Shown piece by piece: positions 1,201-5,412 of a stretch of 5,412 bases of DNA. The translations under genes were made by a program, and so were the position numbers. Source of the stretch: a virus (taxonomy: Duplodnaviria; Heunggongvirae; Uroviricota; Caudoviricetes). The first letter of the stretch is position 1; every line of letters begins with the position of its first letter. Under the pieces are notes generated by a model that searched no databases, was not told the origin of the DNA, and saw nothing but the letters and a program-made list of their open reading frames with translations. The stretch is taken from positions 1 through 5,412 of the IMG/VR virus record IMGVR_UViG_2648501669_000015. One strand, 5' to 3'.

Positions 1201-2931
1201 TTAAAGCGAACGGATCCCGTAGGACTCAATGTGGTCAGACAGCGTGTCTTCTTTCTCAAATAGCATGCAACGACCAATCGCCATAATCAGCGCCACAGCA
1301 CCATCGATTTTGTTTTCGTTGCCTTGTTTGATCGGACGAACAACATCATCGTCGCCGGGAATGTGCTTTCCAATCACGTTGCTGATACACCATGTCATCA
1401 CAGGATTACCATCATGATGAAAACGCCCGGCCTCAATAGCCGCCTCAAGTTCCTTCATGGGATCCGACATATTGGTGTAGTTCTGAATGATGGTAATAGG
1501 GTTTAAGTTTTCATCAGCAAGGTGGTGAGAAAGGTTTGTGGCTCCGTGGGGATCTATAGGTGACTCCTCCACTGCGTTTAAGCGATTTGCTTCTTTCGCA
1601 GACTCAAGGATCTCCCGGTAATCAATTTCCGCACCATCGGTAACGGTAATAAATCCCCCTTCAACCCACTTCTGATAACGTTCTGCTGTGCGACTGTCTG
1701 TCACATCAGCGCTGTAGATTGTGTCGTAGGGAACAAAAAACTTGGGTGCGACACAATAATAATGCGTTTTACCGTCAATCTCTCGGGTAAAAAGCCGTAC
1801 CATCGCGTTCAAATCCAGCTTTCGCGCAAGGTCAAACGCCAGAATGCAGGTATGCCCCTCAAAACGCTCCAGCGTCAGACTCCTGTCTTCACATTTCTGC
1901 CAGTTCACAAGATTGAAGAAGGCGTCTTTTGCTGCCACCCAGATATTCAGATGTTTCGTTTTGAATACGCCCACTTTTCGTGGGTTGTTAATTGCCGCGC
2001 GCTGTTGAGATAACAGGTAATCGCTGTAGACAGAAATCCCCATATTGGGGTTCGCTTTACGCAATACCGCCGGATCTGTCCAGTCATCCCCGTCGTCAAT
2101 GGTATAAATAATCCCGAACAGTTCATCATTGGGCACAATCCCTTCAAGCATTTCGATCACTTCACGACGTTTGTCGTAGCATGGTCCTTCAATGTTATAG
2201 CCCGCAGTGGTGATACCAAAAATCAGCGGCTGACGACGTGCCCCCATCCCGGTTTGCATCGTCTGGTAAAGCGCATCGGTCTGATGCTCGTGATATTCAT
2301 CAATGAGGGCGCAACTCGGCGACGCGCCGTCCCCGGGATCTCCAATCAACGGTTCAAAACGGGCACCGTCCTCCGGACGGCTCATGCTTTGAGCATGTAC
2401 TTCAATACCAAATGCTTCACGCAATGGTTCCGTGCGTTGCGCCATCAGTCTGGCTGGACGAAAAACTTCCCACGCCTGTTTCTCTGTTGTGGCCCCGGAA
2501 TACACTTCAGCGCCAAATTCATCATCGCAGGCAAACATATACAGACCAACGCCAGCAGACATTGCTGATTTCCCGTTTTTACGGGGTATTTCGTTGTAAG
2601 CCTCGCGAAATCGACGCAGGCCGCTCTTTTTTCTCACCCACCCAAACACAACACAAATACAGAACAACTGCCAGGGTTCAAGCGTAATGGGCATCCGTTT
2701 AAATGCCCACTCCCCTTTGGTGTGTGGCAAAAGCTGGATAAATTTCGCTACACGCTCAGCTTTATCCTTATCAAATTTAAACGGATAGTTTTTTTTAGCT
2801 GAGTTTTCCAGGTCATCAAGGTGACGCTGGCAGGCCAGAACGACATAACGGCAAACCTGAATTTTTCCGCGAACCACGTCACGTGCATACTGATTTGCGG
2901 CGTTAACGTTCACGTAATTTTTTCGTGTCAT
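1201..2931 (-). CDS. Phage terminase large subunit (Terminase_1 / HK97-like TerL: ATPase plus nuclease)
   Basis: A 576-aa ORF with the characteristic length and sequence character of HK97-type large terminases (N-terminal ATPase region ...[14 protein letters not shown]..., acidic C-terminal nuclease region ...[12 protein letters not shown]...). The ATG at 2929-2931 overlaps the TGA of the upstream small-terminase gene (ATGA). Confidence 0.92.
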
Positions 2932-3398
2932 AGGTTTTTAAATGGATTATCGCTCCCCTGCTTCGGCGTGATAAGCCGCTGCCGACTGGCAGGATCGAGC
3001 CCTAATAAACTACCGAATGTCACCATTTGTCTGGCGGCCTCATTTGCCGCCGTGAGTGCCGGGTTTTTCTTTGGCCCCACCTCACTCTCTACCGTAATCC
3101 CAACGCGCATAACCTCCTGCTGCGACTCATGCCAGTTGCGAAAAGCAGTGCAGAATGCAACGACATTATGCAAATCAGTAACATAAAGAACTCGCTGGGC
3201 ACAGAGCTCACGAATAATGGTATCCCACATATGGCGAGCGGTTTCATCAAACCACTCGGGAGGGTCAGCATGGGTGATCGGCGTGAATTTTGGCTCAAAC
3301 TTATTTAATGCCCGCTTGCCGGGATTGCCTGCCAGCTCCTTACGGGTGGTCGGCTTCGGCTTTCTCCCTCTTCCGGGCGCAACAGATTTTCCTGACAT
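2928..3398 (-). CDS. Phage terminase small subunit, P27 family
   Basis: Starting from the internal ATG at 3396-3398 gives [38 protein letters not shown]..., a typical P27-type TerS N-terminus. The track's longer ORF (to 3599) would overlap the HNH gene and the putative cos region. A weak AGGA lies about 10 nt upstream. The stop overlaps the TerL start. Confidence 0.85.
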
Positions 3399-3513
3399 GT
3401 CAAATCCTGAAATTTTTAATTTCGCGGGTGTAAAAATTTGACGGGGCGGGCGGTCCCGGACAGCCAGGGTTGCAGGGATTTGACCCGCCCCTCCCCACAA
3501 GTGAGAATAATTA
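3399..3513. other. Candidate cos / packaging-initiation region (HNH-to-TerS intergenic)
   Basis: A 115-bp non-coding gap with ATTTGAC at 3436-3442 and 3478-3484 (direct, about 42 bp apart), each followed by a GC-rich element in opposite orientation (GGGGCGGG at 3443-3450, CCGCCCC at 3485-3491), and an inverted GTCAAAT copy at 3399-3405 abutting the TerS start codon. Its position between HNH and TerS matches where cos lies in HK97-like phages. Confidence 0.35.
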
Positions 3514-3864
3514 TCACCTGATTCGTTCGCGCGCTGTTTTCGCTTTATGGCAGGGCCAGCACAGACTCTGCAGGTTGCTGTCTGCGTCTGTTCCGCCATG
3601 CGCTTTCGGGATGATGTGGTCGACAGTTTTCGCCTCGCTCACCACACCAACACGCAGACACAACTGACACAGACCTTTATCGCGCTTCAGTATACGGGCG
3701 CGAATCACCGTCCATTTTGAGCCATAGCCACGCTGGTGGCGGCTCAGTCCGCGCTGGTGCTGCACCCAGCCTTCACCCCGATGTTTATCGCAGTAGCCAG
3801 AGCTGTCTGTTGTTGTGCCTGCGCAGCCTCGCTTACGGCATGCGCGGGGGATTCGTGACGGCAT
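3514..3864 (-). CDS. HNH endonuclease (phage packaging-associated HNH)
   Basis: A 116-aa ORF with a Cys-rich N-terminus (CRKRGCAGTTTDSSGYCDKH) and an HNH core (DHIIPKAHGGTDADSNLQSLCWPCHKAKT). It lies immediately upstream of cos and TerS, as in HK97-like phages. Confidence 0.9.
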   Translation of the reverse strand: MPSRIPRACRKRGCAGTTTDSSGYCDKHRGEGWVQHQRGLSRHQRGYGSKWTVIRARILKRDKGLCQLCLRVGVVSEAKTVDHIIPKAHGGTDADSNLQSLCWPCHKAKTARERIR

Positions 3865-3892
3865 AGAACTTCACTCATCTGATGTTAAAATT
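3864..3892 (+). promoter_or_regulatory. Candidate sigma70 promoter with extended -10 (TGtTAAAAT) for the plus-strand moron gene
   Basis: TGT at 3883-3885 followed by TAAAAT at 3886-3891, with a weak -35-like TAGAAC at 3864-3869 (about 16 bp spacing). It lies 34 nt upstream of the ATG at 3925, in the divergent gap between HNH and the plus-strand ORF. Confidence 0.25.
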
Positions 3893-3924
3893 CCCACCCT
3901 TTAAAAAAACAATACGGAGGACAA

Positions 3925-4125
3925 ATGAAAAACACGATTTCTAAAGGCTTTCACCGGGTAGGAATTCTGTTAGCTATTCTGGTGTTCATTTTCGGCCTTT
4001 TATCAACAGAGACCCGGGGGTTTTCACTGTTTGATATCCTTGTTTCCCTGATATCTGCCTTGTTGGTATACAGCATCATCAGGCTTGTGGGATGGGCCAT
4101 TAAAGGATTTATGAAAGACAACTAA
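3925..4125 (+). CDS. Small 2-TM membrane protein (66 aa), moron-like accessory gene of unknown function, counter-oriented to the phage late genes
   Basis: Strong Shine-Dalgarno GGAGG at 3916-3920, 4 nt before the ATG. The protein MKNTISKGFHRVGILLAILVFIFGLLSTETRGFSLFDILVSLISALLVYSIIRLVGWAIKGFMKDN has two hydrophobic helices separated by a short polar loop. The region is visibly AT-richer than the flanking phage genes (by eye, not computed). It is the only plus-strand gene in the window. Confidence 0.6.
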   Translation: MKNTISKGFHRVGILLAILVFIFGLLSTETRGFSLFDILVSLISALLVYSIIRLVGWAIKGFMKDN

Positions 4126-4135
4126 AGCATTATCG

Positions 4136-4162
4136 CAGCCCATCGCTGTGTGAAGGGCTGCT
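4136..4162. terminator. Perfect 7-bp stem hairpin (GCAGCCC / GGGCTGC, 13-nt loop) just 3' of the plus-strand moron gene; possible terminator or RNA-stability element without a U-tract
   Basis: The inverted repeat was read directly and starts 11 nt after the TAA stop at 4123-4125. No T-run follows on either strand, so an intrinsic-terminator role is uncertain. Confidence 0.25.
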
Positions 4163-4172
4163 GTAATGCCTG

Positions 4173-4185
4173 TTACTCAGTAACG
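4173..4185. promoter_or_regulatory. Short perfect palindrome GTTAC-TCA-GTAAC between convergent genes
   Basis: Read directly from the sequence. It could be a protein-binding site or a small hairpin; its function is unknown. Confidence 0.15.
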
Positions 4186-4204
4186 ACTGCGCCTTCCGGC
4201 AATT

Positions 4205-4333
4205 TCACGTCTTATCAAACAGCGCCAACAATTCAGAATTTATCTTCTCGAAGCATTCTGAATTAAGTCGAGTGCCAACTGCTACATTTGCTGATGCAGC
4301 AGCTTTTTTATTTAGATTATTTTTCTTCTCCAT
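4205..4333 (-). CDS. Hypothetical small protein (42 aa, Lys/Ala-rich, non-hydrophobic), AT-rich, downstream of the lysis lipoprotein
   Basis: Hand translation of the minus strand gives MEKKNNLNKKAAASANVAVGTRLNSECFEKINSELLALFDKT with a TGA stop at 4205-4207. AAGAGGGT lies about 7 nt upstream of the ATG at 4331-4333. It falls below the ORF-track size cutoff. It could equally be non-coding. Confidence 0.3.
   Translation of the reverse strand: MEKKNNLNKKAAASANVAVGTRLNSECFEKINSELLALFDKT
4290..4309 (+). terminator. Weak candidate intrinsic terminator (plus strand): GCTG-ATGCAG-CAGC hairpin followed by TTTTTT
   Basis: A 4-5 bp stem at 4290-4303 is followed by a T6 run at 4304-4309. It is about 165 nt downstream of the plus-strand moron gene stop and lies inside the minus-strand 42-aa ORF. 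Confidence 0.25.
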
Positions 4334-4372
4334 TAATCTACCCTCTTAAATATAGATGCGGAGTGTCAGCGA

Positions 4373-4555
4373 TCAGTTCTGCAGACACTGCCGAACACCG
4401 TCGACAATTTCACAGACCTGAGAAGCCGTATCGAAAAGCTGGCGCGCCTTATCCAGGCTAACGCATCCCACCAATAAAAAAGGCACCAGTATCACTACCA
4501 GTGCCCATTTCGCCGCCGTTCGCGGCATTCTGTGTGTCCAGTGTTTTCTGCTCAT
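4373..4555 (-). CDS. Small lipoprotein (about 60 aa precursor) in the lysis cassette; possible o-spanin-like or other lysis/exclusion lipoprotein
   Basis: Starting at the internal ATG at 4553-4555 (AGGTG about 4 nt upstream, and after the endolysin stop) gives MSRKHWTHRMPRTAAKWALVVILVPFLLVGC|VSLDKARQLFDTASQVCEIVDGVRQCLQN. This has a basic N-region, a hydrophobic core and an L-V-G-C lipobox, leaving a short mature peptide with three Cys. The track's longer ORF (to 4627) would overlap the endolysin 3' end. Confidence 0.5.
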   Translation of the reverse strand: MSRKHWTHRMPRTAAKWALVVILVPFLLVGCVSLDKARQLFDTASQVCEIVDGVRQCLQN

Positions 4556-4569
4556 AACACACCTGGTTA

Positions 4570-4947
4570 TCAGCGTTTCAACTGAAAGTGAGGCCCGTCT
4601 TTCAGTGTTTTCCAGTCCCCGCCCCATTCGATGGCAGTTCCCAGCTCTGCGGCAGCCTGCTTAAATGCCTGCGCGATTTTCTCGTACAGAGGCCAGTCCC
4701 ATGACACCTGGCTGCCACCCCAGGCAACAACATCCACCGCATCACCGGTCAGATGGCGGCTGTTCATGGTCTGGCTCTTACCTTCTGCGACCAGCTGTTT
4801 CTGGCGATACTTACTGCGCAGGCCTTCCGTAATACCGAAATCAACCTCCGTCAGCTCAAGGGCACGGCGAACGACAGCAACCAGCTGTGGTTTGACGCCC
4901 TCCAGATTCTTTTCGCTGCGACGACTAAATCTGAATTTACCCGACAT
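4570..4947 (-). CDS. Endolysin, peptidase M15 family (L-alanyl-D-glutamate / D-Ala-D-Ala-type zinc peptidase)
   Basis: The protein carries zinc-peptidase M15-type motifs: SRHLTGDAVDV and WGGDW...DGPHFQL. The likely start is ATG at 4945-4947 with GAGGTG upstream; the track's GTG at 4953 is an alternative. It lies directly downstream of the holin-like gene. Confidence 0.82.
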   Translation of the reverse strand: MSGKFRFSRRSEKNLEGVKPQLVAVVRRALELTEVDFGITEGLRSKYRQKQLVAEGKSQTMNSRHLTGDAVDVVAWGGSQVSWDWPLYEKIAQAFKQAAAELGTAIEWGGDWKTLKDGPHFQLKR

Positions 4948-4949
4948 AT

Positions 4950-5225
4950 TCACCTCAACAATGGAAAGATTTTTGTGACGTTCCCGCGTGCGCGTATCAC
5001 CAGCACGCAGAACAGCAGGTTAAAAAACACCTGGAACCAGTCTGTTTCTAACGGGCGACCACACAGATAGCTGAGTGGAACAAAGCCATAAAGCAACATC
5101 AGCAGCCAGGCCAGCCATGACATCAGCGGTTTATGTCTGGAATCACGGCGACGATAAAAAAAGAGCGTCAGCACGATAACCGTGCATAACGCCACATTCA
5201 GTAATCCGGGAAGGTTACTTAACAT
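4950..5225 (-). CDS. Putative holin (about 91 aa, three predicted TM segments, basic C-terminus)
   Basis: ATG at 5223-5225 is preceded by GGAGG with 5 nt spacing. The protein MLSNLPGLLNVALCTVIVLTLFFY...LMSWLAWLLMLLYGFVPLSYL...WFQVFFNLLFCVLVIRARGNVTKIFPLLR is hydrophobic. The TGA stop at 4950-4952 abuts the endolysin start, as in holin-endolysin cassettes. No holin family is recognised by sequence. Confidence 0.45.
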   Translation of the reverse strand: MLSNLPGLLNVALCTVIVLTLFFYRRRDSRHKPLMSWLAWLLMLLYGFVPLSYLCGRPLETDWFQVFFNLLFCVLVIRARGNVTKIFPLLR

Positions 5226-5412
5226 TGTCGCCTCCACCACTCTTCAGGCGGGAGAGCAGACAGGACATCAGTGATATAACGTCCTGCCTGTGCACAAAGG
5301 ACAGCACTTTTACCGACAATACAGACACCAGTACTGCACACAATGCGTCGACAGGTGCACCGTCAAACTCTGTATGCTTTACCAGCCAGGATGCCAGAAC
5401 CTCTGCCCCCAG
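5215..5412 (-). CDS. Partial ORF (C-terminal 65 codons; start beyond the right edge), hydrophobic; possibly a second holin/antiholin-like or other late protein
   Basis: It is the only minus-strand frame open across 5241..5412 and gives ...LGAEVLASWLVKHTEFDGAPVDALCAVLVSVLSVKVLSFVHRQDVISLMSCLLSRLKSGGGDNVK*. The TAA stop at 5215-5217 overlaps the start of the holin-like gene. An open frame of this length could arise by chance. Confidence 0.25.
   Translation of the reverse strand: MGAEVLASWLVKHTEFDGAPVDALCAVLVSVLSVKVLSFVHRQDVISLMSCLLSRLKSGGGDNVK

What the first reader, a model, noticed from the sequence alone, without database searches (positions are those of the whole stretch)
4373..5225. Lysis cassette with an M15-peptidase endolysin and a lone short lipoprotein but no recognisable i-spanin partner
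The gene order is holin-like 3-TM protein, M15-type zinc-peptidase endolysin, then a lipoprotein. The lipoprotein has an LVGC lipobox and only about 29 mature residues, which are Cys-containing and not Pro-rich. That is atypical for Rz1-type o-spanins, and there is no adjacent or embedding ORF with an N-terminal TM plus periplasmic coiled coil (Rz-type i-spanin). It also has no C-terminal TM as a unimolecular spanin would. The protein could be a non-canonical outer-membrane disruptor, or a lipoprotein with another role such as receptor blocking or exclusion, as some phage lipoproteins have.
Basis: partly seen in the sequence, partly recalled or inferred. Interest (0 to 1): 0.45.

Follow-up and report, generated by a model that had tools for sequence, protein, structure and literature searches.

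The report
Lone lipoprotein in phage spanin slot
A phiP27-like E. coli prophage carries a conserved 60-residue outer-membrane lipoprotein gene directly after its cell-wall-degrading enzyme, where phages normally keep the two-part "spanin" that bursts the outer membrane, and no partner protein exists, so it is a testable candidate for a different way of breaking that membrane.

Summary
On the minus strand the window encodes a partial Phage_holin_8 holin, a Phage_holin_3_7 holin, an M15_4 endolysin, and 14 nt later a 60-aa lipoprotein gene (4373-4555). It has an LVGC lipobox, 29 residues after the lipid cysteine, no proline and two more conserved cysteines.

The gene is real: pN/pS is 0.19 in frame and 1.0-1.9 out of frame. 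The family is small and enterobacterial (PHROG 7528, unknown function), found in 352 of 5,426 complete E. coli genomes.

In all 100 loci that could be judged it lies downstream of an endolysin on the same strand, abutting it in 53. This holds across two endolysin types, two holin types, and P27-like, Mu-like and lambdoid backbones. No Rz-type i-spanin accompanies an intact copy, including in one complete 42-kb prophage.

Kongari et al. (2018) listed the phiP27 homologue as an o-spanin. Their paired "i-spanin" is a non-conserved ORF antisense to a real gene. In the two lineages found with canonical Rz/Rz1, the lipoprotein gene is decayed.

Best reading, at moderate confidence: a lysis-cassette lipoprotein that performs or assists outer-membrane disruption without a classical partner. 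Function is untested, and exclusion or regulatory roles remain possible.

The parts
5215..5412 (-). 3' part of the first holin gene (phiP27 L28-like, Phage_holin_8 type). The gene runs off the right end of the window.
   Evidence: The translation ends ...VKVLSFVHRQDVISLMSCLLSRLKSGGGDNVK. Full-length homologues lie upstream of the second holin in 84 related loci. phiP27 L28 matches Pfam Phage_holin_8 at E=3.7e-22 and PHROG 198 holin.
4950..5225 (-). Second holin, 91 aa, with three hydrophobic segments.
   Evidence: Pfam Phage_holin_3_7 E=6.8e-24. PHROG 217 holin E=2.5e-39. Its stop overlaps the endolysin start region.
4570..4947 (-). Endolysin, a soluble M15-family peptidase of 125 aa (127 aa if the GTG at 4953 is used).
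   Evidence: Pfam Peptidase_M15_4 E=5.1e-12. PHROG 465 endolysin E=3.4e-74. Annotated as M15 family metallopeptidase in relatives.
4556..4569 (-). 14-nt intercistronic spacer holding the ribosome-binding site AGGTG. It follows the endolysin double stop TGA TAA.
   Evidence: Sequence read. In other lineages the start and stop overlap or abut (ATGA, TGAATG).
4373..4555 (-). Lipoprotein gene, 60 aa. The signal peptide is residues 1-30 (4466-4555) with lipobox LVGC. The lipid Cys31 is at 4463-4465. The mature 29-residue amphipathic helix carries Cys48 and Cys57 (4376-4462). The stop is at 4373-4375.
   Evidence: pN/pS is 0.19 in frame against 1.0 and 1.9 out of frame, and the N-terminal 17 residues are also constrained. 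G30, C31 and C48 are invariant in the clean 17-member alignment, and C57 is nearly so. PHROG 7528, unknown function, E=1.4e-37. AlphaFold2 gives a helix over 12-59 at mean pLDDT 70. Hydrophobic moment is 0.53, and 7 of 8 heptad a/d positions are hydrophobic.
4471..4506 (-). Terminator-like RNA hairpin (11 bp, GNRA-type loop) followed by UUUUUUAUU. It sits inside codons 17-29 of the lipoprotein gene.
   Evidence: Found by the terminator scan. Folding energy is -22 kcal/mol, z=-5.0. It is kept in 20 distinct alleles, with 97% of cells paired and pair-preserving changes; 1 of 500 shuffles was as good. Synonymous diversity is lower here (pS 0.11 against 0.20) and the rare codon ATA is invariant.

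Best explanation
The 60-aa ORF is a genuine late gene of the lysis cassette of a phiP27-like prophage.

Shown:
- It is protein-coding and under purifying selection.
- It carries a canonical lipoprotein signal whose Gly-Cys is conserved throughout the family. Its +2 residue is Val, Ala, Thr, Ser, Gly or Glu in the members read, never Asp.
- It sits in the position where related phages keep their spanin genes, directly after the endolysin.
- No Rz-type i-spanin is found next to any intact copy, nor anywhere in one complete related prophage.

Inferred mechanism:
1. Q-antiterminated late transcription reads through the hairpin inside the gene.
2. [quoted passage not shown]
3. There the 29-residue amphipathic helix oligomerises and/or lies in the membrane. 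The two conserved cysteines, probably oxidised by Dsb, would form intra- or intermolecular disulfides, as in T4 PseT.2 or lambda Rz1.
4. Once holin and endolysin have removed the peptidoglycan, this weakening lets the outer membrane rupture.

In function it would stand in for a spanin. In design it is nearer to a colicin-lysis-protein-like or 'solo o-spanin' lipopeptide than to a membrane-bridging two-component complex.
For: 1. Coding and constrained. pN/pS is 0.19 in frame against 1.02 and 1.86 out of frame. The constraint is the same in loci with and without a neighbouring small TM ORF (0.18 and 0.19).

2. Position. In 100 of 100 loci that could be judged the gene is downstream of an endolysin on the same strand, and within 20 nt of it in 53. 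This holds with:
- M15_4 and GH108 endolysins;
- the Phage_holin_8 plus 3_7 pair, and lambda-type Phage_holin_3_1;
- P27-like, Mu-like (GemA, Mor, Portal_Mu) and lambdoid backbones.

3. Same slot as a real spanin. In P2-like P88 and Chuche a related M15 endolysin (about 78% nucleotide identity over a 271-nt segment) is followed by a DUF2570 Rz-like spanin.

4. No other spanin.
- The complete A8 prophage has no annotated spanin, no other credible lipobox ORF, and no type II TM protein with a long tail.
- A topology scan of 91 loci found an i-spanin-like ORF only in L007.
- tblastn with three i-spanins and one Rz1 found nothing in loci with an intact gene.

5. Decay where Rz/Rz1 exists. The gene is a pseudogene with three in-frame stops in GER2 and in the FDAARGOS_403 prophage. 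It is truncated and fused in L007, which has an i-spanin and an overlapping o-spanin.

6. Expression. No promoter-like site was found in 3800-5412. The gene has an SD sequence and start/stop coupling to the endolysin.

7. Prior independent listing of the phiP27 homologue as an o-spanin.
Against: - There is no experimental evidence for this family.
- In 47 of the 100 judged loci, 21 to more than 700 nt of unrelated genes separate it from the endolysin, so the coupling is not universal.
- The region between lysis and packaging genes is a common site for morons.
- 29 residues, about 4 nm as a helix, cannot bridge the periplasm, so the known spanin fusion mechanism cannot apply as such.
- The mature peptide is near neutral (net charge -2 to +2), unlike cationic membrane-active peptides.
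- The two decay events could be recombination scars rather than signs of redundancy. The GER2-type stops are one inherited event.
- The hairpin inside the gene could mean that expression is low.
- Weak PHROG 'Rz-like spanin' hits (E=0.0076 to 0.2) are probably driven by the signal peptide.
Confidence: 0.5

Rival explanations
1. It is a classical o-spanin that needs an inner-membrane partner which has not been recognised. Candidates are a non-canonical phage protein, such as the small C-terminal-TM proteins that abut it in about 45% of loci, or a host inner-membrane protein. On this reading the window copy is either partnered in trans or crippled.
For: Kongari et al. filed the phiP27 homologue as a separated two-component spanin, and they note that type I or other topologies could serve as i-spanins. 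In 41 of 91 loci a small TM ORF (PHROGs 4493, 1115, 3246, 4906, all of unknown function) ends 1-5 nt before the lipoprotein start codon. Two periplasmic Cys is the commonest o-spanin pattern.
Against: - Kongari's 64-aa i-spanin occurs only in phiP27 itself. It is antisense to a conserved 90-aa gene (PHROG 36812), and its frame is broken in L030 and L072.
- 50 of 91 loci, and every divergent lineage examined (L090, L095, L097, L099, L101-103, L108), lack any abutting TM ORF.
- Purifying selection is identical with and without such an ORF.
- The small TM proteins have basic N-termini and almost nothing after the TM, so little of them would face the periplasm.
- No holin or endolysin type is a constant companion.
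Confidence: 0.15
2. It is an accessory outer-membrane lipoprotein unrelated to envelope rupture. It could be a Cor/Llp-type receptor mask that protects progeny from debris or excludes superinfecting phage, or a Bor-like conversion factor.
For: Small disulfide-containing outer-membrane lipoproteins such as T5 Llp and phi80 Cor do this (my own knowledge). The lysis-to-packaging junction holds obvious morons in this very window and in relatives: the + strand 66-aa membrane protein, KilA-N, an LPS phosphatase. Inserts separate the gene from the endolysin in 47 of the 100 judged loci.
Against: - It travels with the lysis cassette, not with tail or receptor-binding modules. It occurs in myovirus P27-like, Mu-like and lambdoid elements with unrelated packaging and tail genes.
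- No promoter-like site was found, and it is translationally coupled to the endolysin, so it would be made only minutes before lysis.
- It has no Pfam, NCBIfam or PADLOC match to any exclusion or defence family.
- It is decayed in both lineages found that carry Rz/Rz1.
Confidence: 0.2
3. It is a regulator of lysis timing, such as an antiholin-like or endolysin-controlling membrane protein. It would act as an unprocessed type II membrane protein or through its unusually long, conserved signal peptide.
For: The n-region is 17 residues long, strongly basic and under purifying selection (MSRKHWTHRMPRTAAKW, pN/pS 0.19). The h-region is highly conserved. Colicin lysis proteins have biologically active stable signal peptides (references cited in PMC2896534).
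Against: The lipobox Gly-Cys is conserved across all members read, even where the h-region has diverged (P0125, P0131), which points to lipoprotein processing as the conserved feature. There is no constant holin or endolysin partner to regulate. Part of the h-region conservation is explained by the embedded RNA hairpin.
Confidence: 0.1
4. The ORF is not functional. On this reading the conserved element is only the transcription terminator, and the reading frame is incidental.
For: A strong, conserved hairpin plus U-run lies inside the ORF. PGAP leaves the gene unannotated in several genomes.
Against: pN/pS is 0.16-0.25 in all three parts of the ORF, including the mature part 3' of the hairpin, against at least 1.0 in the other frames. 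The start codon is invariant among the 54 alleles compared. The three cysteines are conserved down to about 48% identity. Where function is plausibly redundant, the ORF accumulates stops while the hairpin remains.
Confidence: 0.03

Closest known systems
o-spanin of two-component spanins (lambda Rz1; T4 PseT.2)
   Same: An outer-membrane-sorted lipoprotein encoded in the lysis cassette downstream of the endolysin, small, with conserved periplasmic cysteines. Two Cys as in T4 PseT.2 is the commonest o-spanin pattern. The phiP27 homologue is listed as an o-spanin in Kongari et al. 2018.
   Different: No cognate i-spanin is found embedded, overlapped or separated. It has no sequence relationship to any spanin family beyond marginal signal-peptide-level hits. 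It has 0 Pro and is predicted almost fully helical, whereas Rz1 is Pro-rich and unstructured. Its periplasmic part of 29-30 residues is the shortest in the Kongari table rows returned.
Unimolecular spanin (T1 gp11)
   Same: A single gene in the spanin position with an N-terminal lipoprotein signal.
   Different: A u-spanin needs a C-terminal transmembrane domain to anchor in the inner membrane, and has a periplasmic domain that is much longer by my recollection. This protein has no C-terminal hydrophobic segment. u-spanins lack periplasmic Cys; this protein has two.
Colicin lysis proteins / bacteriocin release proteins (Cel, Kil, BRP)
   Same: A very small lipoprotein: the precursor is about 47 aa and the mature part about 28 aa in the ColE7 example. 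[quoted passage not shown] It is lethal when over-expressed. Its expression is attenuated by a terminator just upstream (PMC2896534). Here the mature part is 29-30 aa and the terminator-like hairpin lies inside the gene.
   Different: There is no match to the Pfam colicin-lysis family or any other family. The mature sequence is an amphipathic Cys-containing helix. It is encoded in a phage late operon with holin and endolysin rather than in an SOS-controlled colicin operon. OmpLA dependence is untested.
Disruptin (phiKT gp28)
   Same: A small non-spanin protein proposed to break the outer membrane in a phage that lacks spanins (bioRxiv 10.1101/515445).
   Different: Disruptin is described as a cationic antimicrobial peptide, with no lipid anchor mentioned. 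This protein is lipid-anchored and near neutral. There is no sequence relationship.
Phage exclusion lipoproteins (T5 Llp, phi80/N15 Cor) and lambda Bor
   Same: Small phage-encoded outer-membrane lipoproteins. Llp also depends on a disulfide (my own knowledge).
   Different: Those genes sit with receptor-binding or tail genes, or have their own promoter. This one is tied to the endolysin across unrelated virion modules, and no promoter was found. It has no family match.

Membership tests
Two-component spanin, o-spanin subunit | N-terminal lipoprotein signal with a lipobox and the lipidated Cys | tested here: met
   LLVGC with Cys31. Residues 21-31 fit, by inspection, the PROSITE-type rule as I recall it, and there is K/R in the first 7 residues. 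G30 and C31 are invariant in the aligned intact members.
Two-component spanin, o-spanin subunit | Outer-membrane sorting (no Asp at +2) | tested here: met
   The +2 residue is Val, Ala, Thr, Ser, Gly or Glu in the family members read, never Asp. Localisation itself was not tested.
Two-component spanin, o-spanin subunit | Cognate i-spanin gene (type II inner-membrane protein with a periplasmic coiled-coil domain), embedded, overlapping or separate in the same phage | tested here: not met
   None in the window. None in the complete A8 prophage. None in 90 of 91 related loci by topology scan, nor by tblastn with three i-spanins. The phiP27 'i-spanin' of Kongari et al. is not conserved and is antisense to a real gene.
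Two-component spanin, o-spanin subunit | Location in the lysis cassette | tested here: met
   Downstream of an endolysin on the same strand in 100 of 100 loci that could be judged, and within 20 nt in 53.
Two-component spanin, o-spanin subunit | Sequence membership of a known o-spanin family | tested here: not met
   Only PHROG 7528 (unknown function). Hits to 'Rz-like spanin' PHROGs have E=0.0076 to 0.21. No Pfam or NCBIfam family matches. Kongari et al. list it as a singleton.
Two-component spanin, o-spanin subunit | Needed for outer-membrane disruption; complements lambda Rz/Rz1 mutants together with its partner | not testable with these tools
   Requires genetics.
Unimolecular spanin (T1 gp11 type) | Lipoprotein signal plus a C-terminal transmembrane domain | tested here: not met
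   The only hydrophobic segment is the signal peptide. The mature 29 residues are amphipathic with mean hydrophobicity of about -0.06.
Colicin lysis protein / BRP | Sequence membership of the Pfam colicin-lysis family | tested here: not met
   No such hit at E up to 1.
Colicin lysis protein / BRP | Small lipoprotein (mature part about 28 aa) sorted to the outer membrane | tested here: met
   The mature part is 30 aa including the lipid Cys. The comparison is with PMC2896534.
Colicin lysis protein / BRP | Acts through activation of outer-membrane phospholipase A | not testable with these tools
   Needs a pldA mutant host.
Cor/Llp-type exclusion lipoproteins | Homology to Cor or Llp, or genetic linkage to receptor-binding or tail genes | tested here: not met
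   No family hit. The gene is linked to endolysins across unrelated virion modules.
Cor/Llp-type exclusion lipoproteins | Blocks adsorption or DNA entry when expressed | not testable with these tools
   Requires a plating or adsorption assay.

The most novel reading that the evidence does not exclude
A third kind of phage outer-membrane breaching factor, working with no phage partner. It would be a roughly 29-residue, lipid-anchored, disulfide-bearing amphipathic helix: a 'solo o-spanin', or a phage counterpart of colicin lysis proteins.

It would replace the two-component spanin in P27-like, Mu-like and lambdoid prophages of Enterobacteriaceae. A terminator-like hairpin embedded in its signal-peptide codons would keep it silent until Q antitermination.

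A bolder sub-version: the unprocessed precursor, anchored in the inner membrane by its long conserved signal peptide, pairs through the Cys-containing helix with the mature outer-membrane form. One gene would then supply both ends of a minimal bridge.
Probability: 0.3. Interest if true: 0.75.

Novelty: new variant of a known kind. Interest (0 to 1): 0.55.

Why it matters
About 13% of phages of Gram-negative hosts have no recognisable spanin (Kongari et al. 2018). How they open the outer membrane is an open question in phage lysis.

This family is a ready candidate in the most tractable host. It is present in 352 of 5,426 complete E. coli genomes, including Stx2e phage phiP27. It is 60 codons long, and the established lambda Rz/Rz1 complementation assay can test it directly.

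If it works alone:
- it would add a minimal lipopeptide mechanism for outer-membrane rupture;
- it would link phage lysis to colicin-release biology;
- it would correct spanin annotation, both the spurious phiP27 i-spanin and the many records that call the gene 'hypothetical' or leave it unannotated.

If it does not work alone, it is still a widespread late-expressed prophage lipoprotein of unknown role.

Tried and rejected
1. Family searches. The lipoprotein and two divergent members were scanned against Pfam, NCBIfam, PADLOC and PDB sequences.
- The only Pfam hit was sub-threshold (DUF7442, E=0.012) and was not reproduced by divergent members.
- NCBIfam and PADLOC gave nothing.
- The PDB hits were spurious, to a designed helical repeat protein.

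2. Profile search of 1.84 billion representative proteins. It found only 23 clusters, all variants or fragments of the same small family. There was no bridge to a known o-spanin family.

3. Kongari's phiP27 i-spanin was rejected as a shadow ORF.

4. The small TM ORFs upstream of the gene were considered as an obligate partner and rejected. They are absent from 50 of 91 loci and from every divergent lineage examined, and selection on the lipoprotein is the same without them.

5. Other membrane proteins were considered and rejected as partners, because they have two TM segments or the wrong strand: the 66-aa + strand ORF (3925-4125), the YmfR-like ORF (1007-1189), and DUF3927.

6. The AlphaFold2 monomer model gives one long helix at pLDDT about 70. 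That is too simple for a meaningful fold search, so none was run.

7. Literature searches linking bacteriocin release proteins with spanins, or for experimental work on this protein, found nothing.

8. The terminator-only explanation was rejected on codon evidence.
Full report
**What the window is.** The 5.4-kb window comes from a phiP27-like E. coli prophage.
- The lysis region is about 91% identical to Stx2e phage phiP27. A 6.8-kb IMG/VR contig (L008) encodes 97-100% identical products over the same genes.
- On the minus strand it encodes a YmfR-like 2-TM protein, TerL, TerS and an HNH endonuclease.
- The exact phiP27 cos sequence lies between HNH and TerS at 3443-3452.
- To the right, still on the minus strand, lies the lysis cassette that the finding concerns.

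**Observation check.**
- The holin (4950-5225) matches Phage_holin_3_7 at E=6.8e-24.
- The endolysin (4570-4947) matches Peptidase_M15_4 at E=5e-12 and PHROG 465 at E=3e-74.
- After the endolysin double stop TGA TAA and an AGGTG ribosome-binding site, 14 nt downstream, begins a 60-codon gene (4373-4555). It encodes MSRKHWTHRMPRTAAKWALVVILVPFLLVG/CVSLDKARQLFDTASQVCEIVDGVRQCLQN.
- The 84-aa mechanical ORF (to 4627) is an over-extension into the endolysin 3' end.
- The lipobox fits the usual rule. The +2 residue is Val. The mature part has 29 residues after the lipid Cys, no Pro, two further Cys, and no second hydrophobic segment.
- No ORF in any frame of 4200-4630, or elsewhere in the window, has the i-spanin layout.
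- A second, upstream holin gene (Phage_holin_8 type, phiP27 L28-like) runs off the window at 5215-5412.

**Is the small ORF a real gene?** Yes.
- Among 54 distinct alleles from 91 loci, pN/pS is 0.19 in frame, against 1.02 and 1.86 in the other two frames.
- The N-terminal 17 residues, the h-region and the mature part are each constrained, at 0.19, 0.25 and 0.16.
- The constraint on the N-terminus places the start at MSRKHW, not at the Met10 used by Kongari et al.
- In the clean 17-member alignment G30, C31 and C48 are invariant and C57 is nearly so. All three cysteines persist in divergent members down to about 48% identity.
- AlphaFold2 gives one helix over residues 12-59 at moderate confidence, pLDDT 70.
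- The mature segment is strongly amphipathic, with a hydrophobic moment of 0.5-0.6. In a conserved heptad register 7 of 8 a/d positions are hydrophobic, and Cys48 sits in the core. This occupancy is comparable with Lpp and quite unlike Rz1.

**How wide is the family, and is it known?**
- It is PHROG 7528, 'unknown function'.
- It has no Pfam, NCBIfam, PADLOC or PDB relative.
- A word-indexed search found 141 close clusters. A full HMM scan of 1.84 billion representatives found only 23 clusters.
- The source names given are all Enterobacteriaceae: E. coli, Salmonella, Citrobacter, Cronobacter and Lelliottia.
- There are two subfamilies, QLFDTASQVC and NWFGVAADVC.
- It occurs at 547 places in 352 of 5,426 complete E. 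coli genomes, always as 'hypothetical protein' or unannotated.
- It occurs in four distinct deposited phages, one of which (GER2) carries only a pseudogene.

The one prior mention I found is in Kongari et al. 2018 (PMC6139136). Their tables list phiP27 as a 'separated' two-component spanin.
- The o-spanin is at 20706-20861 (51 aa, periplasmic part 30 residues, 83% helix). This is the homologue of the window gene.
- The i-spanin is at 20348-20542 (64 aa).
- The text singles phiP27 out as having the shortest combined periplasmic length, 62 residues.

**The published i-spanin does not hold up.**
- The 64-aa ORF starts with TTG.
- It is fully antisense to a 90-aa reverse-strand gene that has its own PHROG (36812, E=5e-20).
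- It is found only in phiP27 itself among about 100 loci.
- In L030 and L072 the 90-aa gene is conserved at 46% identity, yet the antisense frame is broken to 36 codons.
- The DNA segment that carries it is absent from the window, where the lipoprotein gene abuts the endolysin.

**Context across relatives.** I fetched 80 viral contigs, genome loci and annotated E. coli regions.
- In 100 of 100 loci where the upstream DNA is held, the gene lies downstream of an endolysin on the same strand.
- The endolysin is M15 in 70 loci and GH108 in 30.
- In 53 loci the gap is at most 20 nt. In the rest, 21 to more than 700 nt of variable inserts intervene.
- The holins are the Phage_holin_8 plus 3_7 pair in 84 loci and a lambda-type Phage_holin_3_1 in 9.

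Divergent members (about 45-65% identity to the window protein) show the same layout with start/stop overlap or abutment:

| Locus | Holin(s) | Endolysin | Backbone or note |
|---|---|---|---|
| L090 (Lelliottia) | lambda-type | GH108 | next large ORF ParB-like |
| L095 | holin_3_1 | M15_4 | Q antiterminator upstream |
| L097 | holin_3_1 | M15-like by sequence (no Pfam hit on record) | followed by ParB and Terminase_2 |
| L099 | holin_8 + holin_3_7 | GH108 | Mu-like: GemA, Mor, DUF1804, Portal_Mu |
| L101-L103 | holin pair or lambda-type | M15 | viral contigs |
| L108 | holin_3_1 | GH108 | next gene on the opposite strand |

In P2-like P88 and Chuche a related M15 endolysin is followed, with a 4-nt overlap, by a DUF2570 Rz-like spanin. 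The slot the lipoprotein occupies is therefore the spanin slot.

**Is there a partner anywhere?**
- A complete 42-kb prophage of the window's architecture (E. coli A8, integrase to tail fibre) has no annotated spanin.
- Its only credible lipobox ORF is this gene, and it has no type II TM protein with a hydrophilic tail.
- A topology scan of all same-strand ORFs from -3 kb to +1.8 kb in 91 loci found one i-spanin-like ORF, in L007.
- tblastn with three i-spanins and one Rz1 hit none of the loci that carry an intact gene.
- In 41 of 91 loci a small protein with a C-terminal TM (PHROGs 4493, 1115, 3246, 4906, all of unknown function) ends 1-5 nt before the lipoprotein start.
- These small proteins are absent from the window, from 50 loci and from every divergent lineage examined. 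The lipoprotein is equally constrained with and without them, at 0.19 and 0.18. They are not an obligate partner.

**Where canonical spanins are present, the gene is dead.**
- In Stx-type phage GER2 and an identical prophage in strain FDAARGOS_403 the cassette is class II holin, lysozyme and Rz with embedded Pro-rich Rz1. There the homologous stretch has no start and three in-frame stops.
- In L007 the cassette is lambda holin, GH24 endolysin, a 93-aa i-spanin and an overlapping o-spanin. There the gene is truncated and fused to downstream sequence.
- These are two independent events, so the evidence is suggestive rather than statistical. The direction is what functional redundancy predicts.

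**Expression.**
- No sigma-70-like promoter was found in 3800-5412.
- The gene is co-oriented with the late genes and coupled to the endolysin.
- These prophages carry a Q antiterminator upstream.

A terminator-like hairpin followed by UUUUUUAUU lies inside codons 17-29.
- Its folding energy is -22 kcal/mol, z=-5.0.
- It is kept in most of the lineages folded and in both subfamilies, but not in L099. 97% of cells are paired over 20 distinct sequences, changes preserve pairing, and 1 of 500 shuffles did as well.
- It goes with depressed synonymous diversity and an invariant rare ATA codon.
- It persists in the GER2 pseudogene.
- My inference is that it blocks un-antiterminated read-through into this gene and the packaging genes. 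That would fit a toxic product. It also recalls the terminator that precedes colicin lysis genes (PMC2896534).

**Mechanism.** What is shown:
- a constrained lipoprotein gene with outer-membrane sorting signals;
- its position in the spanin slot of several unrelated cassettes;
- the absence of a recognisable partner.

What is inferred is that the product acts on a host structure, the outer membrane, and supplies or assists the last step of lysis. At 29 residues it cannot bridge the periplasm, so Rz/Rz1-type membrane fusion is unlikely as such. Three routes seem more plausible:
- (a) destabilisation of the inner leaflet by a lipid-anchored amphipathic helix, possibly as disulfide-linked oligomers;
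- (b) a route like that of colicin lysis proteins, through phospholipase A;
- (c) pairing of the uncleaved inner-membrane precursor with the mature outer-membrane form. This is the more speculative option.

I put about 0.5 on 'outer-membrane step of lysis without a canonical partner'. The rivals are 0.15 for an unrecognised partner, 0.2 for an exclusion or other accessory role, 0.1 for a timing regulator, and 0.03 for a non-functional ORF.

**Comparison and novelty.**
- It meets the o-spanin criteria of lipobox, sorting, cassette position and periplasmic Cys. It fails the defining criterion of a cognate i-spanin, and it belongs to no spanin sequence family.
- It fails the u-spanin criterion of a C-terminal TM domain.
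- It resembles colicin lysis proteins in size, anchor and sorting route, and would resemble them in lethality control if the hairpin inference holds. It is not homologous to them.
- I therefore class it as a new variant of a known kind, a spanin-slot lysis lipoprotein. It was partly anticipated by a database entry whose two-component interpretation is wrong.
- Its value lies in making the question of spanin-less lysis directly testable in E. coli.

Noticed in passing
window 4471-4506 (minus strand): A terminator-like hairpin plus U-run lies inside the lipoprotein ORF, at codons 17-29. Folding energy is -22 kcal/mol, z=-5.0. It is conserved with pair-preserving changes in both subfamilies and is retained in the GER2 pseudogene. 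Synonymous diversity is depressed across it, and the rare codon ATA is invariant.
   Followed up: partly
L110 3489-3680 (phage GER2); L111 about 3001-3175; L007 2932-3123: The lipoprotein gene is a pseudogene with three in-frame stops and no start in Stx-type prophages that carry canonical Rz/Rz1. It is truncated and fused in another prophage that has an i-spanin and an overlapping o-spanin.
   Followed up: yes
L001 4833-5027 (phiP27 record 20348-20542): The phiP27 'i-spanin' listed in the Kongari et al. 2018 spanin tables is a TTG-start ORF antisense to a conserved 90-aa gene (PHROG 36812). It is absent from or broken in all relatives. GenBank L32 is also annotated in the wrong frame across the lipoprotein gene.
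   Followed up: yes
loci L057 -175..-2, L061 -339..-5, L093 2135-2457 (relative to or near the lipoprotein start): Families of small proteins with a C-terminal TM (PHROGs 4493, 1115, 3246, 4906, all of unknown function) end 1-5 nt before the lipoprotein start in 41 of 91 loci. They are absent from the window.
   Followed up: partly
window 3925-4125 (+ strand), with a terminator-like site starting at 4288 (+ strand): A 66-aa protein with two TM segments is encoded on the opposite strand between the lysis and packaging genes. It has a good ribosome-binding site and a terminator-like site downstream, and it looks like a moron. It is present in only some relatives (L004, L021, L035, L089). It has no family match.
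   Followed up: partly
window 4205-4333 (minus strand): A 42-aa ORF downstream of the lipoprotein resembles the C-terminal half of phiP27 L31 (54% identity). In phiP27 that gene lies upstream of the lipoprotein, so the region has been rearranged. Whether the ORF is coding was not tested.
   Followed up: no
window 3443-3452, and ORF 2928-3599: The phiP27 cos-site sequence is conserved exactly, with 51 of 51 bases around it identical. The long 223-aa 'TerS' ORF is therefore over-extended, and the real TerS is 2928-3398 as annotated in relatives.
   Followed up: partly
L002 (PP818812.1): 'Actinobacillus phage vB_Apl-pPE4' is about 96% identical to E. coli prophage DNA across this lysis region. 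That is unexpected for a Pasteurellaceae host and may reflect a host mis-assignment.
   Followed up: no
L105 and L106 (phages P88 and Chuche), 1572-2368: A related M15 endolysin (about 78% nucleotide identity over a 271-nt segment) in P2-like phages is followed, with a 4-nt overlap, by a DUF2570 Rz-like spanin. This marks the slot that the lipoprotein occupies in the window as the spanin slot.
   Followed up: yes
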